Shown here: positions 5,613 through 41,411 of the stretch, in pieces | Layout: each line of letters begins with the position of its first letter | How positions within the stretch are numbered: position 1 is the first letter of the stretch | Sequence record: MN850595.1 | Length of the DNA stretch: 64,000 nt | Strand: one strand, 5' to 3' | From: Escherichia phage naswa | The notes under the pieces: generated by a model | Databases searched by the model: none | Seen by the model: the letters and a program-made list of their open reading frames with translations, nothing else | What the model was told of the DNA's origin: nothing | Made by a program: the position numbers and the translations under genes

Positions 5613-6656
5613 TTATTTAACGTGTTTGAAAATACCTGCCAACTCGGTCATTGTCATGCGGGTGGTCTTCATAAGATCTGTCATAGCTTTCTCCATAATT
5701 GGAGATACTACCATAAAGTTTCCTTTAGTGAAACCTTTATTCCAGTCGGTCACCAACAGGGGTTTAAGTCCAGCTCCAAGACGTTCACCAGTTAAAGCAC
5801 AGCATTTGCGAATATACGAACTCTTAAATTGGCTGAACGACAGATCAACTTTCATACCTACATCGTAGAACGTTTGACAATAGAAAGTGTAAGCTTTGGC
5901 AATCTCAACATCATCAGGTAGTGCAGGAACCTCTTCTGTAAGCTCCTCTTCGACCTCCTGAGTCTCTTTTTCCTCTTCATGCACCTGTTGCGTCATTTCT
6001 TCAATCTCTTCTGTGATAGGCTCGTTTACAATGTCGGAAATGTGCTTCTTGGGTGCACGATAAGTAACTTTAGACATCGGTAGCATATCTTCCTCCTCTT
6101 CTTCGTCAAAGAGTGCTAGTTTATCCTCTTCCGTTCCATATTGCAAGATGAAATCTTCAAAAGTATAATCACCTTTCAATTTCTCCATACGCTCTTCGCT
6201 CAGGTGGAGCATCATCTGCTGGACAATTTTTCGATCAGTTTCGTCTTTAATCAAGACTGCAGTCTTTTTATCTACCAGACAGTCCTTTAGAGAGTTGCAT
6301 CTCAATCCCACCACACAACAGTTATCAACCGCATAAGGACCTTCATCATCTATCCGCTCCAGAGATGGGTAGAAAGGATTCCCCAGCCCGTTTTCATCTG
6401 TGTGCATGTCAAAAGGTATAAGGGTATAGTCGCATACTCCATCTCCTAAAAGTTTTTTACCAAATAGGAGGTATTCTTCCCATGACAGGTCGAACTCTAT
6501 ATCTCGTTTCCGTGCGTTATTCTGTTTGCGTCTATATTTTTTGAGCAAGCGCTCTAACTCTTCTGGTGTATAATATTTTTCAAGATTCATGAGTCGTCTC
6601 TCGTGCTCTGTAAGTGAAGAAATCGTATCAATTGTCTCAACAGATGTCAACATCAA
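5613..6656 (-). CDS. hypothetical acidic protein (possible fusion of two modules)
   Basis: 347 aa; Glu-rich central region; in-frame internal ATG at 6077 preceded by GAGGAGG, encoding 'MSKVTYRA' shared with the plus-strand gene at 7921. Confidence 0.5.
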   Translation of the reverse strand: MMLTSVETIDTISSLTEHERRLMNLEKYYTPEELERLLKKYRRKQNNARKRDIEFDLSWEEYLLFGKKLLGDGVCDYTLIPFDMHTDENGLGNPFYPSLERIDDEGPYAVDNCCVVGLRCNSLKDCLVDKKTAVLIKDETDRKIVQQMMLHLSEERMEKLKGDYTFEDFILQYGTEEDKLALFDEEEEEDMLPMSKVTYRAPKKHISDIVNEPITEEIEEMTQQVHEEEKETQEVEEELTEEVPALPDDVEIAKAYTFYCQTFYDVGMKVDLSFSQFKSSYIRKCCALTGERLGAGLKPLLVTDWNKGFTKGNFMVVSPIMEKAMTDLMKTTRMTMTELAGIFKHVK

Positions 6657-7920: not shown

Positions 7921-8277
7921 ATGTCTAAAGTTACTTATCGTGCAGCTATTTACTGCAATGAACACCCAATCAATAATGATGGTCACTGCCTTTTTAAAGA
8001 AAATCAATTGGGCTGTATTGTCCTCCCTGATGAAGGGGAAGGTTATCTGATTGCATTGACAGGGTTTGAACCTGAGGCTCTGGAAGCCAATCTGGACTAC
8101 CTGGTAGAAGAGGGTGCTGCAGACCTGGTTGCCAATGGCCTCTCCATAAGCCTTGACGAAGTAGAGCGCTTCATGGGCAATTACCGTGTAGTGCGTGAGT
8201 TTACTATCGAGGTGGAAACTCCCGAGTGGAGTAGCCATGAAACTAATGCCGAAGAAAAAGAAGAGGAGGTAGAATAA
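7921..8277 (+). CDS. hypothetical acidic protein
   Basis: Start moved to ATG 7921 (AAGGAG 8 nt upstream); N-terminus 'MSKVTYRA' repeated inside 5613..6656; Glu-rich C-terminus. Confidence 0.5.
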   Translation: MSKVTYRAAIYCNEHPINNDGHCLFKENQLGCIVLPDEGEGYLIALTGFEPEALEANLDYLVEEGAADLVANGLSISLDEVERFMGNYRVVREFTIEVETPEWSSHETNAEEKEEEVE

Positions 8278-32569: not shown

Positions 32570-33060
32570 GATTTCTAAAATGGATTTCCTCCTTTTGATA
32601 TTTCACCGGGCTGGATATTTTAAAATTCTTAGAAAATCAGAAAATGGATCGAAAACTAAAATGGATTTTTCAGAGTAGGCGCGACAAGCTGAATAGCTCA
32701 TCCTATCGTTTGCACCATATTCCAGACCACCATTATAGATTTCCCACACATGCTAACCTCCCTCTACTAGAACTTCCTCCACTTACCCTTGACCTTCTAT
32801 GGTAACAATCTAACCACTATCTTGAAGTTGCGGTGCAGCTTTCCAGGTACTCGATCTACTTTTCATTTCAGGGCTTGGATTTTCTGAAAATTTTTCTCGA
32901 TAAATTTCTCAGTACTCGATCTGTTTTTCGTTTTCTGAATCGGATTTTCTGGAAATCGTTCCGGATCTCGACCTGAAATTTTTGGGGACGAAATCTATTT
33001 TTCGTTTTCAGAAATGGATTTTTAAAATTTCTATATGGGAATATTTTATGGGGCACTGTT
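32570..33060. repeat. AT-rich degenerate tandem direct repeats (~70-bp period)
   Basis: Recurring 'TACTCGATCT(A/G)(C/T)TTTTC(A/G)TTT(T)C(A/T)G', 'GGATTTTCTG(G)AAA' and 'AAAATGGATTT' units; non-coding. Confidence 0.5.
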
Positions 33061-33083
33061 TTATAGGAAATTGTTACGGAGGG

Positions 33084-33101
33084 TAATTAGCATGCTAATT
33101 A
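33084..33101. promoter_or_regulatory. perfect 18-bp palindrome TAATTAGCATGCTAATTA
   Basis: Read directly; lies in non-coding region. Confidence 0.45.
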
Positions 33102-33167
33102 AATTTATTAAATGCGAGGGATTCTTATTTAGAATTTTGAATGATAATTATTCTCGTTTGCAGAATA

Positions 33168-33349
33168 ACGGGCAGGCCCGGTGATTGTCTCCCGGCCCCT
33201 GCTGCCCCGGCTTGTTATTATAGTATCACACAGGACAAAGAAGGCAAGGATTTTTTGCATAAATTTTTAAATGATAATGATAACCGTTCTCATTTTATGA
33301 AGCGCCCATCCCCGGTGGTTGTCTCCCCCGTCACCGGTGCCTGCCGTCC
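33168..33349. repeat. two direct copies of a GC-rich imperfect-palindrome element (~45 bp)
   Basis: 'GGCAGGCCCGGTGATTGTCTCCC...' at 33168-33211 and '...CCGGTGGTTGTCTCCCCCGTCACCGGTGCCTGCC' at 33305-33349; third inverted copy at 42738-42787. Confidence 0.5.
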
Positions 33350-33499
33350 TTTCGATAGGTATATTATGCCGCCTGGCGGGGCCGCTGTCAACACTTTTCA
33401 AAAAATTTTTCTAACCTGATGCGCTAACCGTTGCAACCTGGCGGGGCCAGCCTGGCAGGTCCGCACTATAAAGTAAACAGCTACAGAAGAGGTACAAAA

Positions 33500-33658
33500 A
33501 TGAAAGGTAATGCTACTCGCCTGGGAAATGTAGTGATTAATGATACGGAAGCTATCGCCCTGGTTGAAAAGGTTATGGCGGGAGCGTTGGAACATAAAGA
33601 AGAGTACGAAAAAATGGTGGTTAACCTGGCGGGGGGCGGCAGGTGGATTCTATCATAA
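33500..33658 (+). CDS. hypothetical small protein
   Basis: 52 codons from ATG 33500 behind AGAAGAGG; partly overlaps CCTGGCGGGG repeat, so coding status uncertain. Confidence 0.3.
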   Translation: MKGNATRLGNVVINDTEAIALVEKVMAGALEHKEEYEKMVVNLAGGGRWILS

Positions 33659-33677
33659 AAATAATTTAAAATAGTCG

Positions 33678-33705
33678 TTGACAACAAGGTTAATCATGGT
33701 ATTAT
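33678..33705 (+). promoter_or_regulatory. sigma70-like promoter (TTGACA-N16-TATTAT)
   Basis: Hexamers read directly. Confidence 0.5.
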
Positions 33706-33755
33706 TACCCTACAAGGTGAACAACACCGCACTAACCAGTAAAGAGGATAAATTT

Positions 33756-33953
33756 ATGAACGCATACGGGATCAAAGTACGTCGCAACACTCGCCAGGTG
33801 GTCACCAATCAAGTGATTTGCCGGGTGGATGTAACCATCAACAACGGGCAAGGCCTTTATAAATTTCGTCGCGGTCATAGCTATACCCTGCAACAGCTTA
33901 ATCGTTGCGCCCTGACAAAAGGTCAGATCAACCACTGGTTTAATAAAAAATAA
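33756..33953 (+). CDS. hypothetical small protein
   Basis: Start moved to ATG 33756 behind AAAGAGGA. Confidence 0.4.
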   Translation: MNAYGIKVRRNTRQVVTNQVICRVDVTINNGQGLYKFRRGHSYTLQQLNRCALTKGQINHWFNKK

Positions 33954-33956
33954 GTA

Positions 33957-33985
33957 TTGACATACAGTCCGACACCAAATACACT
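33957..33985 (+). promoter_or_regulatory. sigma70-like promoter (TTGACA-N17-TACACT)
   Basis: Hexamers read directly. Confidence 0.5.
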
Positions 33986-34017
33986 AAAAGCACAAAAGAC
34001 ACTAAGAGGATAAAATC

Positions 34018-34416
34018 ATGAAAACCACTACCTTTAATTTTGATAATGCAGACTTTTCTTTTTCTGATGTCAAGAACTGCCGCCGTGATCGTGGATTTTA
34101 CAAGGCTTATAATCTGGTGGGCCTGGACGATGACAATAATTTGCACGAAGTAGCTGAGATCCGGTATTATGCCGCCGCCAGCGGGAACACTCACTACTGC
34201 GTGTTTTGGATTCACGACAACAAGAACAATAAGTACGGTTATACTGGCGGCAAGGCGAGCGGTCACGGTTACGATAAAGCTAACGCAGCACTTGAGAGCG
34301 CATTAAATGCTATGGGGATCACTGCCGACGGCTGGATCTACGAAGAAGAGTTTTTGTCGGCACTTGCTGACCACCTGGGCTATAAAAAACACATTGTAAC
34401 ATGCGCCCACGAATAA
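34018..34416 (+). CDS. hypothetical protein
   Basis: Track ORF 132 aa; AAGAGGA SD. Confidence 0.5.
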   Translation: MKTTTFNFDNADFSFSDVKNCRRDRGFYKAYNLVGLDDDNNLHEVAEIRYYAAASGNTHYCVFWIHDNKNNKYGYTGGKASGHGYDKANAALESALNAMGITADGWIYEEEFLSALADHLGYKKHIVTCAHE

Positions 34417-34422
34417 AAATCA

Positions 34423-34450
34423 TTGACACGCTGCAAAATTTAAGTAAACT
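34423..34450 (+). promoter_or_regulatory. sigma70-like promoter (TTGACA-N16-TAAACT) with 5' leader hairpin
   Basis: Followed by GGCGGGAA-TGTT-TCCCGCC stem-loop at 34461-34479 and CA-rich leader. Confidence 0.5.
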
Positions 34451-34498
34451 AGACACAAAAGGCGGGAATGTTTCCCGCCAGCACAAAGGAAAAAGATC

Positions 34499-34894
34499 AT
34501 GAATAAGAACGTACGCCGCATCATGAACGAACTGGCAAACGATGAAAAAATTATTGATATGCATTTGGTCAACATTTGCCGCCGTTGTGTAACATATAAC
34601 AACCGCGCCGCAAAAGCGCGTGAGATGAACGCAAAAGGCACCTTAAAGCCCTTTCAGGTGGTTGTAAAATCTATAACTAGCGCAGCAGGCCAGGCGCAGG
34701 ACCACAACAACGAGAGCGCTAATATTGATCCGTCTTACGTAATGAAACGGATCCGGACTTGCAAGAATAAAGAGCAGGTATATAACGTCATAGATTGGCT
34801 GGACTCCCTGGGCGATGTGGTTTACAATAGGTTTTCTGCAGCTATCGAGATCCAGCTTGACAGATTGGACGGGAAAGTACTAAAAACTTATTGA
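34499..34894 (+). CDS. hypothetical protein
   Basis: Track ORF 131 aa. Confidence 0.5.
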   Translation: MNKNVRRIMNELANDEKIIDMHLVNICRRCVTYNNRAAKAREMNAKGTLKPFQVVVKSITSAAGQAQDHNNESANIDPSYVMKRIRTCKNKEQVYNVIDWLDSLGDVVYNRFSAAIEIQLDRLDGKVLKTY

Positions 34895-34896
34895 GT

Positions 34897-34942
34897 TTAT
34901 TTTTAGATGGCCTTGACACCAGGGCCATCAATAAAGTAAACT
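34897..34942 (+). promoter_or_regulatory. repeated promoter/operator element (copy 1): palindrome GATGGCC-TTGACA-CCAGGGCCATC with TAAACT -10
   Basis: 45-bp element 'TTATTTTTAGATGGCCTTGACACCAGGGCCATCAATAAAGTAAA' also at 35518 and 39251. Confidence 0.55.
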
Positions 34943-34974
34943 AACCACAGTTGAGCGGAAAAGGGGGCTTAAAG

Positions 34975-35094
34975 ATGAGCACTACACGCCAGCACACAAA
35001 GGTAACCATCATCGTTTGCATCATTGGGTACATCCTGGCGCAAATGTTGATGGGTAGCGCCAACGGTGTCGCAAAATTTTTCTTAAACTTTTAA
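34975..35094 (+). CDS. small hydrophobic peptide (39 aa)
   Basis: ATG behind AAAGGGGG; hydrophobic core 'IIVCIIGYILAQMLMG'; below track length cutoff. Confidence 0.3.
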   Translation: MSTTRQHTKVTIIVCIIGYILAQMLMGSANGVAKFFLNF

Positions 35095-35122
35095 TTGACA
35101 AGCTAACTTAAATCGATATAAT
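35095..35122 (+). promoter_or_regulatory. sigma70-like promoter (TTGACA-N16-TATAAT)
   Basis: Consensus hexamers read directly. Confidence 0.55.
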
Positions 35123-35173
35123 AAGCACATAAACGGGAAAACTTCCCAGAACACACAAAAGGAGAAAAACACC

Positions 35174-35515
35174 ATGACTACTATGACCGCCTCAGAAAAA
35201 GCTATGCAGATCGCTGAACTGAAAAAACAGATCGCAGACCTTGAGAATAAGATCGATAACTTTGAAATCGACGAGGACAAGTACGACGAAAACTATGATG
35301 AATGGTTAGACGAGATCTACGGCGAAATTATGATCGGAAACATTTCTTTTCTTCCGTCGCGTATCCTCAAGGAGCTAGATCCTATCGCTTACCGCTGCGG
35401 ATTTAGCGACTACATCGACAGCCTGGATATTGAGGACGATGAAGAATACCAGGAATTACAGACAGAGTTAGAAGAAGCAAAAGAAGAGCTTGCGGAGCTG
35501 GAAGAAAACGAGTAA
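35174..35515 (+). CDS. highly acidic small protein (DNA-mimic candidate)
   Basis: 113 aa; long Asp/Glu runs and coiled-coil-like heptads. Confidence 0.5.
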   Translation: MTTMTASEKAMQIAELKKQIADLENKIDNFEIDEDKYDENYDEWLDEIYGEIMIGNISFLPSRILKELDPIAYRCGFSDYIDSLDIEDDEEYQELQTELEEAKEELAELEENE

Positions 35516-35517
35516 GC

Positions 35518-35562
35518 TTATTTTTAGATGGCCTTGACACCAGGGCCATCAATAAAGTAAAC
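35518..35562 (+). promoter_or_regulatory. repeated promoter/operator element (copy 2)
   Basis: Identical 45-bp element to 34897. Confidence 0.55.
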
Positions 35563-35604
35563 TTTATACTGTTAACACTGAACTAATGCATAGGAGTTAA
35601 AACC

Positions 35605-35850
35605 ATGGCAGCACTAATCACCAAATATTATGCCCCTACCAACACCAAAAGCGCCCGTATCATGGTAAAAGGCTTCGGACGTAAAAAGGTGTACACCTGG
35701 GATTATGCCTTAGACACGGAAGACAACTACACCAACGCAATGACCGATTTTATTAATGAACTAAATAAGCAGATCTTGACAAGTTATAAAGTGACCGATA
35801 TTGCTTATATAGGTGAAGGCGGGATCTGTTTTGTAGGCATTGTGAAATAG
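35605..35850 (+). CDS. hypothetical protein
   Basis: Track ORF 81 aa; 'ATAGGAGTTAAAACCATGGC' start context identical to gene at 40217. Confidence 0.5.
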   Translation: MAALITKYYAPTNTKSARIMVKGFGRKKVYTWDYALDTEDNYTNAMTDFINELNKQILTSYKVTDIAYIGEGGICFVGIVK

Positions 35851-35924
35851 TTATTTTTTCGGTGGTCCTGGTTGCAGGGCCATCTATAAAGATAATTTAT
35901 TAACACCATGAAAGGAGAAAGTAC

Positions 35925-36278
35925 ATGATCAGCGGGGCAAGTTTTATTATTGGCGCTATTGCTACGGCTTTAATTGTAAATAAGATCCAGGATAAAAAGG
36001 AAAGAGGAAGTACCGCCCTTGCAGAATATCCATTTTGGGCATTCAACGATAACGAAGATTATATTATAAAGTATAAAAATAAAGAAGGTGACCAAGTAAC
36101 ACCGCGACCGATCCCGGCTTACAAAATGCAGGAAACACTATACCGCCTGGAGGCGGGAGGCGCAAAAATTGTAGACTTTTGGGGATACGACCACACAGAT
36201 CAGGAAGTTATAAAGCGCCGTATCCGGGCTATTCAGGCCAATATTGAAGTTAGCAAGGGGGGAATATATGAAAATTAA
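35925..36278 (+). CDS. hypothetical protein (N-terminal hydrophobic segment)
   Basis: Track ORF 117 aa. Confidence 0.5.
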   Translation: MISGASFIIGAIATALIVNKIQDKKERGSTALAEYPFWAFNDNEDYIIKYKNKEGDQVTPRPIPAYKMQETLYRLEAGGAKIVDFWGYDHTDQEVIKRRIRAIQANIEVSKGGIYEN

Positions 36279-36465
36279 TTTCGAGAAAATTGTAAAGCGC
36301 CCTCATGATTCCGAAGAGCTGCCAGAACGCCGCCAGCGTAACAATAAACTGAATAAGCCAAAAAGGTTTGGGAAGATCTGGCGTAATCATTATGATCGTA
36401 AATTGCCCGGCCTACTTTTGGAACGTGAACGACAGGCAGAACGATACCGCCATAAAGACAAATAA
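36268..36465 (+). CDS. hypothetical basic protein
   Basis: Start moved to ATG 36268 behind AAGGGGGG; Arg/Lys-rich. Confidence 0.4.
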   Translation: MKINFEKIVKRPHDSEELPERRQRNNKLNKPKRFGKIWRNHYDRKLPGLLLERERQAERYRHKDK

Positions 36466-36471
36466 CAACCA

Positions 36472-36498
36472 ACGCCCCGCCATTGTGCGGGGCTTTTT
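36472..36498 (+). terminator. rho-independent terminator
   Basis: GCCCCGC-CATTGT-GCGGGGC hairpin then TTTTTATTT. Confidence 0.6.
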
Positions 36499-36646
36499 AT
36501 TTCTATCCTACGAATAGCGCCCCTGGTTGGCCCCACAAACGCCACAAAAGCCCCTACCTATGCAATCCCCTTTCTTGACCTGAAAACAACGTCTAGGGCC
36601 GTTTTATGGCGTTAAAAATATTATTGACAGTGATTTTATTCAAAGC

Positions 36647-36675
36647 TTGACACCTTGGAATAGTCCGGATATACT
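36647..36675 (+). promoter_or_regulatory. sigma70-like promoter (TTGACA-N17-TATACT)
   Basis: Hexamers read directly; track ORF 36647 starts inside the -35 and is rejected. Confidence 0.5.
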
Positions 36676-36706
36676 AACCACATCAAAGCAAGAAGGAGTA
36701 AACGCC

Positions 36707-36967
36707 ATGCGTAAATTAAAAAATTTTGATAAAGTAGATGTTGTCCTGAATAATTTTTACTACTGCAATAATAAAGCCGTTTGGTGGCGTGATAGTTCCA
36801 CCGATAAAGTTAAAGCGCGCTTTCTCCAGGGGCACTGGCAAGGCCGCCCAGTGATTAAAATCTTAGGGCAATTGGTAGCGTTTAAAAATTGCCACCGTGT
36901 TGACGACGTTGAAGATATTTTGAACATTTTACGCCACAATAATTTAAAAAATAGTGTTGACAAGTAA
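36707..36967 (+). CDS. hypothetical protein
   Basis: Start moved to ATG 36707 behind AGAAGGAG. Confidence 0.45.
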   Translation: MRKLKNFDKVDVVLNNFYYCNNKAVWWRDSSTDKVKARFLQGHWQGRPVIKILGQLVAFKNCHRVDDVEDILNILRHNNLKNSVDK

Positions 36968-36984
36968 GCCTCAATAAGTATACT
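36957..36984 (+). promoter_or_regulatory. sigma70-like promoter (TTGACA-N16-TATACT) with leader hairpin
   Basis: Followed by GGCGGGAA-AACT-TCCCGCC at ~36996-37013. Confidence 0.5.
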
Positions 36985-37041
36985 TAAACACACAGGCGGG
37001 AAAACTTCCCGCCACTAACAAAGAAAATAGGAGAAAATATC

Positions 37042-37665
37042 ATGACCACCGTTAACATTACTACAGGTTACAATTTATCTTTCGACGTGCTGACCGACGA
37101 ACAAAAAGAAAAAGCCGTTGAAATGGTCCGCGAAAGAGAAGAACACAGCGGGGATAATTTTTTTGCAGAAAGTGTAATTGAATACTATAAAGAATATGTT
37201 TTTCCAGAGTATGGCCTTGAAGATACCGAAGTACATTGGTCAGGCTTTTGGTGCCAGGGTGACGGCGCGTCAATCAGTGCGGAAAACGTGGATTTAGAAA
37301 AATTCTTGCGTAAAGTAAAGGCCCTGACCAAGTTCCGATCAATTCGTCACTTGTTCGGCACAATGCACGATGGCGAGCTATCCGCAAGTGTTGAGCGTGA
37401 TCCATATAGCCGCTATAGTCACGAAAACACTGTAAGCGGGTACATCGATACTACATGGCTAGACCTGACCGCCAAACAAGAAAATAAAGTGGAAGATCTG
37501 GAAGAGCTGATCACCGAGACGGTACGGGAGCTATCCCGCAAGGTTTACGTAGACCTGGAGGAGGCCTATCTTGAGCAATTTACCGCCGAAAACTTGATCG
37601 GCCTTATCGAGGCAAATGATTGGCGGTTTGATGTGGATGAGCATGGCGAGATGAGTTTTTCATAA
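37042..37665 (+). CDS. hypothetical protein
   Basis: Track ORF 207 aa; TAGGAGAA SD. Confidence 0.55.
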   Translation: MTTVNITTGYNLSFDVLTDEQKEKAVEMVREREEHSGDNFFAESVIEYYKEYVFPEYGLEDTEVHWSGFWCQGDGASISAENVDLEKFLRKVKALTKFRSIRHLFGTMHDGELSASVERDPYSRYSHENTVSGYIDTTWLDLTAKQENKVEDLEELITETVRELSRKVYVDLEEAYLEQFTAENLIGLIEANDWRFDVDEHGEMSFS

Positions 37666-37672
37666 ATAAAGT

Positions 37673-37700
37673 GTTGCAATAATCTAAAAACCTGCTATAT
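37673..37700 (+). promoter_or_regulatory. sigma70-like promoter (TTGCAA-N16-TATATT) with leader hairpin
   Basis: Followed by GGGGCAAG-ACG-TTTGCCCC stem-loop. Confidence 0.45.
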
Positions 37701-37754
37701 TAAAACTCAAGGGGCAAGACGTTTGCCCCCACACAAAACAAAGAGGAAAACATC

Positions 37755-38135
37755 ATGAAAAACACTACTAAAGCTATTGACACCGTCATGTTTAACCTGG
37801 TTACATTCCGTGAAGATATGAAAGATCTTCCTCGTGAAACAGTGTGCGACCATATCGAAAACTATCGCAAACTAATCAAAGAGTTGCCTTTAAAACGTGA
37901 TCAATATGCGGCTAACGCCATGCTTAATGCCATGATCAAAAAGATGATCCAGTGTGATTTAACCCTGGCCTATGATTATGCAGGCGGTCGTTTTGCAGTA
38001 TACAATCAGCCCGTGCCCGGTATGAGCACCACCGAAGAATTGCACGCGCTCAATCTAAAACAAGACGTGTGGGATAGTATGCCTCGCGTGGTGGTATGGG
38101 TAGAAAGCGGAAAGATTTACGGCGATAATTTTTAA
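37755..38135 (+). CDS. hypothetical protein
   Basis: Track ORF 126 aa; AAGAGGAAAA SD. Confidence 0.5.
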   Translation: MKNTTKAIDTVMFNLVTFREDMKDLPRETVCDHIENYRKLIKELPLKRDQYAANAMLNAMIKKMIQCDLTLAYDYAGGRFAVYNQPVPGMSTTEELHALNLKQDVWDSMPRVVVWVESGKIYGDNF

Positions 38136-38199
38136 TCAGGTAGCAGGCGGCATATTTGCCGCCTTATTGTTAATCAGAACTGTAAAAGAGGTACATAGA

Positions 38200-38571
38200 A
38201 TGGAATTTATTATTTTGGCTGTATTTGTTGCCTTGTTCAACGCCTGGATCGCTGGCAAGATGGGTAGATCCGCCTTTTTATGGTTTATTATATCTATTTT
38301 CCTGGGGGTGGTTGCAACTATTGTACTTGTTATCCTTGCAATTGTTGACAAGGGGAATAATAGAAAGGGTAAAGTATTTTCAGACCTGTACGACGCTCAA
38401 ACGTTTGTCAACGCCTATTATAGTGATCTTCCAGTCTCCCTACGCTGCAGCCTGGCACAACAAGTTTTCGATGAGGCTAAAACCAGAGATCAAGCCCATG
38501 AGATATGTTTAACTGAGGCGGATCGCCTATTTGAGAGGAATAGAAAATATGTGGGCCAACCGTTTAAATAA
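38200..38571 (+). CDS. membrane protein (two predicted TM helices)
   Basis: Start moved to ATG 38200 behind AAAGAGG; 'FIILAVFVALF' and 'WFIISIFLGVVATIVLVILAIV'. Confidence 0.5.
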   Translation: MEFIILAVFVALFNAWIAGKMGRSAFLWFIISIFLGVVATIVLVILAIVDKGNNRKGKVFSDLYDAQTFVNAYYSDLPVSLRCSLAQQVFDEAKTRDQAHEICLTEADRLFERNRKYVGQPFK

Positions 38572-39248: not shown

Positions 39249-39250
39249 AA

Positions 39251-39295
39251 TTTATTTTTAGATGGCCTTGACTCCAGGGCCATCAATAAAGTAAA
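39251..39295 (+). promoter_or_regulatory. repeated promoter/operator element (copy 3, TTGACT variant)
   Basis: 'TTTATTTTTAGATGGCCTTGACTCCAGGGCCATCAATAAAGTAAA'. Confidence 0.5.
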
Positions 39296-39333
39296 TTTAA
39301 ACCCTGTTAAAAATACCACGCAGTTAACAAGGA

Positions 39334-41373: not shown

Positions 41374-41411
41374 GCGCGGGAATACTTCCCGCCATTAATG
41401 AGGGTAATTTA

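What the first reader, a model, noticed from the sequence alone, without database searches (positions are those of the whole stretch)
35174..35515. Highly acidic early protein: DNA-mimic candidate
The 113-aa protein driven by the consensus promoter at 35095 is dominated by Asp/Glu in coiled-coil-like spacing, like Ocr/ArdA-type mimics that block restriction or other DNA-binding defences. The Glu-rich regions of 5613-6656 and 7921-8277 are weaker candidates.
Basis: inference. Interest (0 to 1): 0.5.

Follow-up and report, generated by a model that had tools for sequence, protein, structure and literature searches.

The report
Acidic early phage protein, unknown family
This is a real, strongly expressed early gene of an rV5-like E. 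coli phage, and it belongs to a very large uncharacterised family found only in virulent phages. Its shape (a conserved small head on a very acidic coiled-coil stalk) makes it a plausible decoy for a host DNA-handling enzyme, but it is not related to Ocr or ArdA and its target is unknown.

Summary
Window 35174-35515 (+) encodes a 113-aa protein with 32% Asp/Glu and net charge -27. It is the most acidic of 177 ORFs in the window. It sits behind a perfect TTGACA-16-TATAAT promoter and a strong Shine-Dalgarno site. The window is a Vequintavirus (rV5-like) genome.

The protein has no sequence or fold similarity to Ocr, ArdA, Gam, gp5.9 or any solved structure.

The family (PHROG 9294; at least 1,619 clusters at 50% identity) is defined by a roughly 50-residue globular head (YD..LDE.YG...SR.LKELDPIAYRCGFSDY), not by the acidic coils. 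A near-neutral N-terminal helix and a polyacidic C-terminal helix flank the head and pair as an antiparallel stalk (AlphaFold2 pLDDT 91).

The family is acidic throughout. It lies in early regions of unrelated virulent phages, and it was not found in plasmids or bacterial genomes.

Published BASEL plating data show that Vequintaviruses carrying this gene escape two type I R-M systems despite 14-17 EcoKI sites, while type II enzymes restrict them heavily. A phi92-like phage without the gene escapes as well, so this is not gene-specific evidence.

Best reading (about 0.4): an abundant early decoy or inhibitor of a conserved host nucleic-acid-handling protein. It would be a new family of a known functional kind.

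The parts
34894..34942 (+). Upstream copy of a 49-nt hairpin repeat. It starts at the stop codon of the preceding gene and contains a promoter-like TTGACA-18-TAAACT (34913-34942). It marks the left edge of the cassette that holds the target gene.
   Evidence: Repeat family D1 has 4 copies. The 18-nt core gives 3 matches against 0.01 expected. The RNA fold is -24 kcal/mol, z = -8.1. The promoter-like site is listed.
34975..35094 (+). Small ORF of 39 aa (MSTTRQHTKVTIIVCIIGYILAQMLMGSANGVAKFFLNF) with a hydrophobic, probably membrane-spanning segment. It lies between the repeat and the target's promoter. Its relation to the target is unknown.
   Evidence: Sequence. The ORF listing gives 34951..35094 from an upstream TTG. 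It is annotated as a fourth CDS in some relatives (H4/H9).
35095..35122 (+). Sigma-70 consensus promoter TTGACA-16 nt-TATAAT that drives the target gene.
   Evidence: 12 of 12 positions match; best site in 33000-38500.
35133..35149 (+). Weak 5'-UTR hairpin (CGGGAAAACUUCCCAG). It is a degenerate copy of a hairpin found after other early promoters in the window.
   Evidence: Repeat families D4 and D8. The fold here is -5.5 kcal/mol, z = -1.8, against -14.6 kcal/mol, z = -4.9 for the copy at 36995.
35159..35164 (+). Shine-Dalgarno sequence AAGGAG, 9 nt upstream of the ATG.
   Evidence: Read directly.
35174..35515 (+). CDS of the 113-aa acidic protein (PHROG 9294).
35189..35257 (+). N-terminal amphipathic helix (aa 6-28) with heptad spacing and near-neutral charge. 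It forms one strand of the predicted antiparallel stalk.
   Evidence: AlphaFold2 model with pLDDT 90.7. Across the family the N-terminal part has net charge -3, and 140 of 161 members show heptad spacing.
35273..35422 (+). Conserved head domain (aa 34-83): helix, beta-hairpin, helix, helix. The motif is YD..LDE.YG...SR.LKELDPIAYRCGFSDY. D69, Y73, C75 and D79 are invariant.
35441..35506 (+). C-terminal polyacidic amphipathic helix (aa 90-111; 15 acidic and 1 basic residue in aa 86-113). It forms the second strand of the stalk.
   Evidence: Across the family the C-terminal part is 45% Asp/Glu with net charge -15, and 154 of 161 members show heptad spacing.
35515..35563 (+). Downstream copy of the 49-nt hairpin repeat (98% identical to the upstream copy). 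It starts at the last base of the target's stop codon and marks the right edge of the cassette.
   Evidence: The fold is -19.8 kcal/mol, z = -5.7.

Best explanation
The gene encodes a stand-alone early protein made at high level from a consensus host-type promoter as soon as the phage DNA enters the cell. I propose it acts as a stoichiometric decoy or competitive inhibitor of a conserved host protein that handles DNA or RNA. In this model the 50-residue conserved head docks specifically on the target. The polyacidic antiparallel coiled-coil stalk is about 33 A long, roughly one turn of B-DNA. Together with the acidic collar around the head, the stalk would occupy the target's positively charged nucleic-acid-binding surface.

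The target is not identified. Candidates, in no firm order, are type I R-M or BREX methyltransferase cores, RecBCD or SMC-type complexes, and RNA polymerase or nucleoid proteins.

Shown:
- the gene, its composition, its promoter and its conservation;
- the family's architecture;
- its restriction to phage sequences in the collections searched, and early placement of homologues;
- absence of homology to known mimics.

Inferred:
- high early expression in this phage;
- pairing of the two helices (from the AlphaFold2 model and their co-occurrence);
- binding to a host protein;
- mimicry of nucleic acid.
For: - **Expression signals.** Perfect -35/-10 promoter and strong SD.
- **Conserved acidity.** Net charge is -27 in 113 aa, the top of 177 window ORFs. 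Across 218 retrieved family members the median is 30.6% Asp/Glu and net -27. Even the 64-aa head-only forms are net -11 to -12. The C-terminal part is 45% Asp/Glu and 4.6% Lys/Arg, with heptad spacing in 154 of 161 members.
- **Selection.** pN/pS is about 0.10. Within the genus, the head is 97% conserved, the C helix 95% and the N helix 84%.
- **Early placement in unrelated phages.**
  - PAK_P3 gp86 lies in the RNA-seq-defined early region gp74-gp112 (PMC4933390).
  - Kakivirus PS3 has two paralogues at 1.7 and 2.9 kb from the left end, the first directly behind a sigma-70 promoter.
  - The pelagiphage HTVC109P copy lies at 0.6 kb.
- **Stand-alone gene.** No gene neighbour is conserved across 28 locus groups.
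- **Phage-only.** One 'plasmid' hit is a phage genome, and one hit was found in 185,579 bacterial species by pattern scan.
- **Host range.** The head is conserved across phages of E. coli, Vibrio, Pseudomonas, Pelagibacter and others. This argues for a target conserved among bacteria.
- **Type I escape.** Carriers of the gene escape type I R-M. Bas48 and Bas49 give EOP 0.5-1.2 on EcoKI with 14-17 sites and 0.4-1.25 on EcoCFT_I. They give about 1e-3 on EcoRI and no plaques on EcoRV. Controls with 3-7 EcoKI sites give 1e-4 to 1e-5.
Against: - No similarity in sequence or fold to any known DNA mimic or to any solved structure.
- The oligomeric state is unknown.
- The most conserved part is the head, not the acidic surface. 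Some members lack the stalk altogether, so mimicry by the stalk cannot be the whole mechanism.
- Many other early ORFs in this window are also acidic (pI 4.0-4.5), so acidity alone is weak evidence.
- Type I escape also occurs in a phage without the family.
- BASEL's authors attribute poor type I performance in general to the rarity of sites.
- No interaction, phenotype or expression data exist for any member. A motif search of the literature found nothing.
Confidence: 0.4

Rival explanations
1. One reading: an Ocr/ArdA-like DNA mimic that binds the methyltransferase core of type I R-M enzymes (and possibly BREX PglX) and so protects incoming phage DNA. This is a special case of the best explanation.
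For: - From general knowledge of T7 Ocr (not retrieved here), its composition and size are similar: about 116 aa and net charge near -28.
- Expression signals for an abundant early protein.
- Vequintaviruses carrying the gene are almost unrestricted by EcoKI (type IA) and EcoCFT_I (type IB), despite 14-17 and 4-5 sites. They are strongly restricted by EcoRI and EcoRV. This type-I-specific pattern is what an Ocr-like protein gives.
- The window shows no avoidance of EcoKI sites: 10 sites against 7.3 +/- 2.6 expected.
- In Kakivirus PS3 a family member sits near the left genome end, directly behind an early sigma-70 promoter. This resembles the position of T7 gene 0.3 (general knowledge of T7).
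Against: - No Ocr or ArdA Pfam hit.
- No PDB sequence hit at E up to 10.
- The phi92-like phage Bas60 has no family member. It still plates at 0.13-0.72 on EcoKI with 12 sites and at 0.7-1.2 on EcoCFT_I with 9 sites.
- The family was not found in plasmids or bacterial chromosomes. From general knowledge, anti-type-I mimics are common there.
- The strongly conserved head is not expected for a pure charge mimic.
Confidence: 0.12
2. A specific protein-protein inhibitor or adaptor for host takeover that does not mimic nucleic acid. The head binds a host protein such as RNA polymerase or sigma, a nucleoid protein, a protease or a chaperone. The acidic zipper serves solubility or oligomerisation, or pairs with a basic helix of the partner.
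For: - The head, not the charge, is the most conserved element, and head-only members exist.
- The C helix resembles designed 'acid' leucine-zipper peptides that pair with basic partners. This is a weak PDB hit to GCN4 acid/base heterodimer peptides at E about 2.5.
- The family is exclusive to virulent phages. This fits a function harmful to the host.
- Some members carry Zn-ribbon-like CxxC tails.
Against: - Extreme net charge is conserved in every part of the protein, including head-only forms. This is more than solubility requires.
- Nothing identifies a partner.
Confidence: 0.3
3. A phage-internal role: a prefoldin-like or acidic chaperone, or an assembly or regulatory factor, for basic phage proteins or for phage replication and transcription complexes.
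For: - The overall topology (long N and C helices paired antiparallel, with a beta-hairpin-containing insert between them) is prefoldin-like. The best Foldseek hit is prefoldin beta, but it is not significant (E = 2.5, TM 0.42).
- Tandem-head polyprotein versions lie in a block of large co-directional genes that includes a packaging-ATPase-like gene.
Against: - The gene has a host-type consensus promoter in a region of small early ORFs.
- It has no conserved phage partner gene nearby.
- It occurs in phages with unrelated replication and morphogenesis modules: T7-like, rV5-like, PAK_P3-like and pelagiphages.
Confidence: 0.12
4. Not a functional gene: a chance ORF or low-complexity artefact.
For: - The Glu-rich tail is low-complexity. 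BLAST's filter truncates alignments at residue 86.
Against: - pN/pS is about 0.10.
- 111 records hold the region at 90% identity or more.
- 1,619 remote cluster representatives match at E up to 1e-10.
- The AlphaFold2 model is confident.
- The gene has a promoter and an SD.
Confidence: 0.01

Closest known systems
T7 Ocr (gp0.3), a DNA-mimic inhibitor of type I R-M and BREX and a trigger of PARIS
   Same: - Similar size and charge: about 113-117 aa, net about -27 to -28, mostly helical.
- Early and highly expressed.
- A family member lies near the left genome end behind an early promoter in a T7-like Kakivirus, resembling the gene 0.3 position in T7 (general knowledge).
- Phages carrying the gene show type-I-specific escape.
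   Different: - No sequence or fold similarity.
- This protein has a strongly conserved globular head plus a coiled-coil hairpin.
- Its oligomeric state and DNA-like charge geometry are untested.
ArdA (plasmid and transposon antirestriction DNA mimic)
   Same: - Acidic.
- A proposed decoy for DNA-binding enzymes.
   Different: - No homology or fold match.
- ArdA is a plasmid and transposon protein (general knowledge), whereas this family was not found in plasmids or bacterial genomes.
- This protein is much smaller. ArdA is about 165 aa with three domains (from general knowledge).
T7 gp5.9 and lambda Gam, helical or coiled-coil acidic mimics that block RecBCD (gp5.9 also MukBEF)
   Same: - Small, acidic, helical or coiled-coil phage proteins that insert into a DNA-binding site. 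That description of gp5.9 and Gam is from general knowledge; the gp5.9-MukBEF paper appeared and was not read.
- The stalk here could work the same way.
   Different: - No sequence match to any PDB chain.
- This protein has an additional conserved head.
- No evidence links it to RecBCD.
T5 Ptr1 (ORF094) and Ptr2 (ORF103), small highly acidic phage proteins of unknown function that trigger PARIS
   Same: - The same descriptive class: small, very negatively charged proteins of a virulent E. coli phage with no known function (PMC11464382).
   Different: - No relationship has been shown.
- Whether this protein triggers PARIS is untested.
PHROG 9294 (with 9396 and 37123), 'unknown function'
   Same: - The protein is a full-length member of PHROG 9294 (E = 2.3e-53).
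- Its head also matches PHROGs 9396 and 37123.
   Different: - These families carry no annotation and no Pfam model.
- This work adds the architecture, the distribution and the early placement.
Prefoldin beta subunit (architecture only)
   Same: - Topology: two long antiparallel helices joined by an element that contains a beta-hairpin. It is the top Foldseek hit.
   Different: - The match is not significant (E = 2.5, TM 0.42).
- The head here has three extra helices.
- There is no sequence relationship.

Membership tests
Ocr (T7 gp0.3) family | Sequence homology to Ocr (Pfam Ocr model or PDB 1S7Z sequence) | tested here: not met
   Pfam scan at E up to 1 lists only coiled-coil noise, all below cut-off. 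A family profile and a head-only member searched against all PDB sequences at E up to 10 give no Ocr hit.
Ocr (T7 gp0.3) family | Ocr fold | tested here: not met
Ocr (T7 gp0.3) family | Surface carboxylates superimpose on the phosphates of bent B-DNA in a dimer | not testable with these tools
   Model coordinates are not returned and no multimer prediction is offered. Only linear estimates are possible (net -27; an acidic helix of about 33 A).
Ocr (T7 gp0.3) family | Inhibits type I R-M or BREX in vivo | not testable with these tools
   Only indirect evidence exists. Carriers plate at EOP 0.5-1.2 on EcoKI and EcoCFT_I, but so does a phage without the gene.
ArdA family | Sequence homology to ArdA (Pfam ArdA model or PDB 2W82) | tested here: not met
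   No hit.
ArdA family | Elongated three-domain ArdA fold | tested here: not met
   No such match.
DNA-mimic proteins (functional class, not a homologous family) | Small protein, very high Asp/Glu content, low pI | tested here: met
   31.9% Asp/Glu, net -27, pI about 4.05. The property is conserved across the family.
DNA-mimic proteins (functional class, not a homologous family) | Binds the DNA-binding site of a DNA-binding protein and competes with DNA | not testable with these tools
   No interaction data exist for any family member.
Gam / gp5.9-type RecBCD inhibitors | Sequence or fold similarity to Gam or gp5.9 | tested here: not met
   No PDB sequence hit. Neither appears in the listed fold matches.
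PHROG 9294 | Full-length match to the family profile | tested here: met
   E = 2.3e-53; residues 1-113 align to profile positions 1-119 of 127.
Prefoldin beta-like | Significant structural similarity | tested here: inconclusive
   It is the best Foldseek hit, but E = 2.5, probability 0.28 and TM 0.42.

The most novel reading that the evidence does not exclude
The protein would be the founding, experimentally tractable member of a very widespread new class of phage decoy proteins, in which a novel conserved head on a polyacidic coiled-coil stalk blocks a bacterial DNA-handling machine conserved from SAR11 to E. coli. In Vequintaviruses it would be the unrecognised factor behind their escape from type I restriction. 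In some marine phages the same head would be delivered as protease-processed modules of capsid-packaged polyproteins, analogous to T4 internal proteins or P1 Dar.
Probability: 0.2. Interest if true: 0.75.

Novelty: new variant of a known kind. Interest (0 to 1): 0.45.

Why it matters
Small acidic early proteins are a recurring phage tool against host DNA-targeting immunity. Known examples include Ocr, ArdA, Gam and gp5.9, and PARIS senses such proteins. This family is much more abundant in metagenomes than most characterised examples, with at least 1,619 clusters at 50% identity. It has no annotation, no Pfam model and no structural relative. It spans phages of very different hosts.

Identifying its target would annotate thousands of 'dark matter' early genes at once. 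It would also give a concrete candidate for a gap in the BASEL data: Vequintaviruses are described as exceptionally sensitive to R-M systems, yet the raw numbers show them nearly immune to both type I systems tested despite many sites. The gene is easy to test in E. coli K-12 with published phages (Bas48-59) and published defence plasmids.

Tried and rejected
- **Family libraries.** Pfam, NCBIfam and PHROG scans of the protein, of head-only members and of fused relatives gave only unknown-function PHROGs, plus coiled-coil and zinc-finger noise below cut-offs.
- **PDB by sequence.** A family profile and a head-only member found nothing.
- **Fold searches.**
  - Foldseek against PDB found nothing at E up to 0.001.
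- **Guilt by association.** Clustering ORFs around 41 family genes in 28 locus groups gave no neighbour conserved beyond lineage-level synteny.
- **Plasmid or ICE leading-region context.** The family is absent from plasmids. It was also essentially not found in bacterial genomes, though that scan used only one narrow peptide pattern.
- **Presence or absence against type I sensitivity.** The phi92-like phage Bas60 lacks the family but is still largely type-I-resistant. This test is not discriminating.
- **Other anti-restriction genes.** None of ten other acidic window ORFs has a relevant annotation. The ORF at 5613-6653 (-) matches HNH and Srd-like PHROGs.
- **Literature.** Searches for rV5 or Vequintavirus transcriptomes, anti-defence screens and the sequence motif itself found nothing on this gene.
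- **RNA genes.** Rfam and tRNA scans of the window found none.
- **Polyprotein neighbourhood.** Only a packaging-ATPase-like neighbour could be named.

Full report
**What the window is**

The 1-kb stretch around the finding is 99.9% identical to Escherichia phages EdH4, nom and JLBYU08. It matches 119 phage records, and 111 of them cover at least 80% of it. All are about 130-140 kb myoviruses of the genus Vequintavirus (rV5-like). The region is a run of small, co-directional ORFs of unknown function. It is punctuated by sigma-70-like promoters, with 24 sites in 5.5 kb against 12.0 +/- 3.5 in shuffles. This is the typical look of an early, host-takeover region.

**The observation**

The ORF at 35174-35515 (+) encodes 113 aa. 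It has 23 Glu and 13 Asp (31.9%) against 9 Lys+Arg, giving net charge -27 and pI about 4.05. It is the most acidic of the 177 ATG-ORFs of at least 60 aa in the window.

It is preceded by TTGACA-16-TATAAT at 35095-35122, the only 12/12 promoter match in the scanned region. AAGGAG lies 9 nt before the ATG.

The gene is under strong purifying selection. Against a diverged relative, pN/pS is about 0.10. Among 35 Vequintavirus orthologues, the head is 97% conserved, the C helix 95% and the N helix 84%.

**Anatomy**

Homology searches returned 71 proteins. A profile search of 1.84 billion cluster representatives returned 3,845 hits at E up to 1e-3 and 1,619 at E up to 1e-10.

Alignments show what defines the family. 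It is a roughly 50-residue core, residues 34-83 here, with the motif YD..LDE.YG.....G..F..SR.LKELDPIAYRCGFSDY. D69, Y73, C75 and D79 are invariant. Y41, L45, S62, L65, E67, P70, I71, A72, G76 and Y80 are nearly so. Minimal members of 64-68 aa consist of this core alone.

AlphaFold2 gives a confident model (pLDDT 90.7, pTM 0.67; core alone 91.5) with these elements:
- helix 6-28
- helix 34-49
- beta-hairpin 52-59
- helices 61-68 and 70-83
- helix 90-111

Across the family the three parts differ in charge:
- The N-terminal part is nearly neutral (net -3).
- The head is net -9.
- The C-terminal part is 45% Asp/Glu and 4.6% Lys/Arg (net -15), with heptad hydrophobic spacing in 154 of 161 members.

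In this protein every exposed heptad position of residues 92-112 except four is Asp or Glu. That gives an acidic stripe about 33 A long. This last point is inference from the sequence and helix geometry.

**Comparison with known families**

No Pfam or NCBIfam model matches. PHROG 9294 matches full-length (E = 2.3e-53), and PHROGs 9396 and 37123 match the head. All three are of unknown function.

No PDB sequence matches the family profile or a head-only member at E up to 10.

Fold searches gave the following:
- Foldseek against 350,542 PDB chains gives nothing at E up to 0.001. The top hit, prefoldin beta, is not significant (E = 2.5, TM 0.42) and reflects topology only.

Ocr, ArdA, Gam, gp5.9 and other solved mimics do not appear. 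The protein is therefore not a member of any known DNA-mimic family, and its head is an undescribed small domain.

**Where the family lives**

In the phage database it occurs in 182 records. These include Vequintaviruses, Pseudomonas PAK_P1/KPP10-like myoviruses, Vibrio, Klebsiella and Serratia myoviruses, T7-like Kakivirus and Novosibvirus podoviruses of Providencia and Proteus, and a pelagiphage. Marine metagenome contigs also carry it.

Placement is consistently early:
- PAK_P3 gp86 lies in the region gp74-gp112, shown by RNA-seq to be transcribed early (PMC4933390).
- Providencia phage PS3 has two paralogues at 1.7 and 2.9 kb from the left end. The first lies directly behind an annotated sigma-70 promoter.
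- In pelagiphage HTVC109P the match is at 0.6 kb.

No neighbouring gene is conserved beyond lineage-level synteny in 28 locus groups, so the gene is a stand-alone function.

A motif scan of 185,579 bacterial and archaeal species found a single weak hit. That scan used one narrow pattern, so divergent prophage copies could have been missed.

**Phenotypic data from the literature**

The BASEL paper states that Vequintavirinae are 'exceptionally susceptible' to R-M systems and seem to lack protection (PMC8594841). Its raw data are more specific.

| Phage | EcoKI sites | EcoCFT_I sites | EOP on EcoKI | EOP on EcoCFT_I | Other systems |
|---|---|---|---|---|---|
| CarlMeissner (Bas48) | 14 | 4 | 0.5-0.93 | 0.4-1.0 | EcoRI 4e-4 to 1e-3; EcoRV no plaques; EcoCFT_II 0.02-0.09 |
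| EmilHeitz (Bas49) | 17 | 5 | 0.57-1.2 | 0.7-1.25 | similar pattern |
| Bas01 (control) | 3 | 6 | about 1e-4 | about 1e-2 | |
| Bas02 (control) | 7 | 7 | about 1e-5 | about 2e-3 | |
| Bas03 (control) | 1 | 5 | 0.15-1 | about 5e-3 to 1e-2 | |

In EmilHeitz the protein is identical to the window's over residues 1-86.

The window itself has 10 EcoKI sites against 7.3 +/- 2.6 expected. There is therefore no avoidance of sites.

These phages thus have a type-I-specific escape, which is what an Ocr-like protein would give. The link to this gene is weak, however. The phi92-like phage PaulScherrer (Bas60; 12 EcoKI and 9 EcoCFT_I sites) has no family member in a six-frame HMM scan of 150,000 of its 150,425 bp. 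It still plates at 0.13-0.72 on EcoKI and 0.7-1.2 on EcoCFT_I.

**Fused and repeated versions**

Some metagenomic proteins of 211-559 aa carry two tandem heads, Zn-ribbon-like modules, an EF-hand-like loop and a C-terminal hydrophobic helix. These modules are separated by recurring ...AE(S/T)F(G/E)A... peptides, and the proteins begin with MF(N/E)DK.F.K.G..AE.

From my own knowledge these resemble the capsid-targeting leader and the S/A/G-x-E or L/I-x-E cleavage sites of T4 and phiKZ prohead proteases. That would make them packaged, injected proteins. This is speculation.

One such gene lies in a block of large co-directional genes next to a packaging-ATPase-like gene on a 144-kb contig. Relatives that share the flanking modules carry pentapeptide repeats instead. 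Another fusion joins the family to Pfam Kyano_Gp96, a domain of T4-like cyanophages.

**Most likely mechanism**

I commit, at about 0.4, to an abundant early decoy or competitive inhibitor. In this model the conserved head docks on a host nucleic-acid-handling protein that is conserved across bacteria, and the polyacidic stalk and collar occupy its DNA- or RNA-binding surface.

The steps that are shown:
- the gene, its charge, its promoter and its selection;
- the architecture;
- the phage-only, early distribution;
- the lack of homology to known mimics.

The steps that are inferred:
- expression timing in this phage;
- helix pairing;
- the existence of a host target;
- mimicry.

The main rival, at about 0.3, is a specific protein-protein inhibitor in which the charge is not mimicry. 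Supporting it, the head is the conserved element and head-only forms exist. A phage-internal chaperone or assembly role gets about 0.12. An artefact is excluded.

**Novelty and verdict**

The functional kind, a small acidic early anti-host protein, is well known. PARIS is even triggered by structurally diverse small acidic phage proteins: Ocr and T5 Ptr1 and Ptr2 (PMC11464382). The family, its head fold and its head-plus-acidic-stalk design have not been described, and no paper in the searched library mentions the motif.

I rate it a new variant of a known kind, with interest 0.45. The family is large, clean and easy to test, but so far it has no phenotype.

Noticed in passing
window 34894-34942, 35515-35563, 39249-39297 (and a degenerate copy at 35849-35897): A 49-nt repeat starts exactly at the stop codons of early genes. 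It folds into a strong hairpin (-20 to -24 kcal/mol, z = -5.7 to -8.1) and carries TTGACA in the stem-loop with TAAACT 18 nt downstream. Two copies flank the target cassette. From memory this resembles the promoter-early stem-loops (PeSLs) proposed to shuffle early-gene cassettes in T4-type phages.
   Followed up: partly
window 34462-34484, 35133-35155, 36996-37018, 41376-41398: A conserved GCGGGAAAACTTCCCGCC-type hairpin lies about 10-15 nt downstream of several early promoters, in the 5' UTR. The copy at 36995 folds at -14.6 kcal/mol (z = -4.9). The copy in front of the target gene is degenerate (-5.5 kcal/mol). It could be a 5'-end stabiliser or a regulatory site.
   Followed up: partly
window 34975-35094 (+): An unannotated or inconsistently annotated 39-aa hydrophobic ORF lies directly upstream of the target's promoter, inside the same repeat-bounded cassette.
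   Followed up: no
It matches PHROG 3118 (HNH endonuclease, E = 8e-113) and, more weakly, the 'decoy of host sigma70' and Srd anti-sigma PHROGs. It is not an Ocr-like mimic candidate.
   Followed up: partly
window 37042-37665 (+): A second strongly acidic early protein (207 aa, net -25; PHROG 5162, unknown function) has its own 11/12 promoter at 36957 and a 5'-UTR hairpin. It is another decoy-type candidate in the same region.
   Followed up: no
BASEL S1 Data and S5 Table (PMC8594841); phages Bas48, Bas49, Bas55, Bas59, Bas60-62: Vequintaviruses and phi92-like phages are described as exceptionally R-M-sensitive. The raw EOPs show near-complete escape from both type I systems despite 9-17 EcoKI sites. 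Small siphoviruses with 3-7 sites drop 1e4- to 1e5-fold. This points to an unrecognised mechanism of escape from type I restriction in these large myoviruses.
   Followed up: partly
P0127, P0145, P0151, P0185, P0108, P0115; locus L046 10001-11575: Marine polyproteins carry two tandem copies of the head domain, Zn-ribbon-like modules, an EF-hand-like loop (DRNKDGKISSWE) and a C-terminal hydrophobic helix. Recurring AE(S/T)F(G/E)A linkers look like prohead-protease cleavage sites. Relatives with the same flanking modules carry pentapeptide repeats.
   Followed up: partly
L007 (Providencia phage PS3) 1683-1886 and 2931-3131: Two paralogues of the head-only form lie in the early region of one T7-like phage. 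The first is directly behind an annotated sigma-70 promoter.
   Followed up: no
phage records MG065635, MG065653, MG065666, MG065677, MG065690 ('Campylobacter phage'); plasmid record CP057073.1: Seventeen 'Campylobacter phage' records match this E. coli Vequintavirus region; the listed ones are 93-99.7% identical to it (DNA or protein). They are probably mislabelled or contaminant assemblies. A 137.6-kb 'non-mobilizable E. coli plasmid' in PLSDB is a Vequintavirus genome.
   Followed up: no
window 32837-33022: Three imperfect direct repeats of about 47-62 nt (65-74 nt spacing) lie in an ORF-poor stretch of lower GC (0.38) with a local GC-skew reversal, just upstream of the early-gene run. TRF and Rfam find nothing there.
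   Followed up: partly
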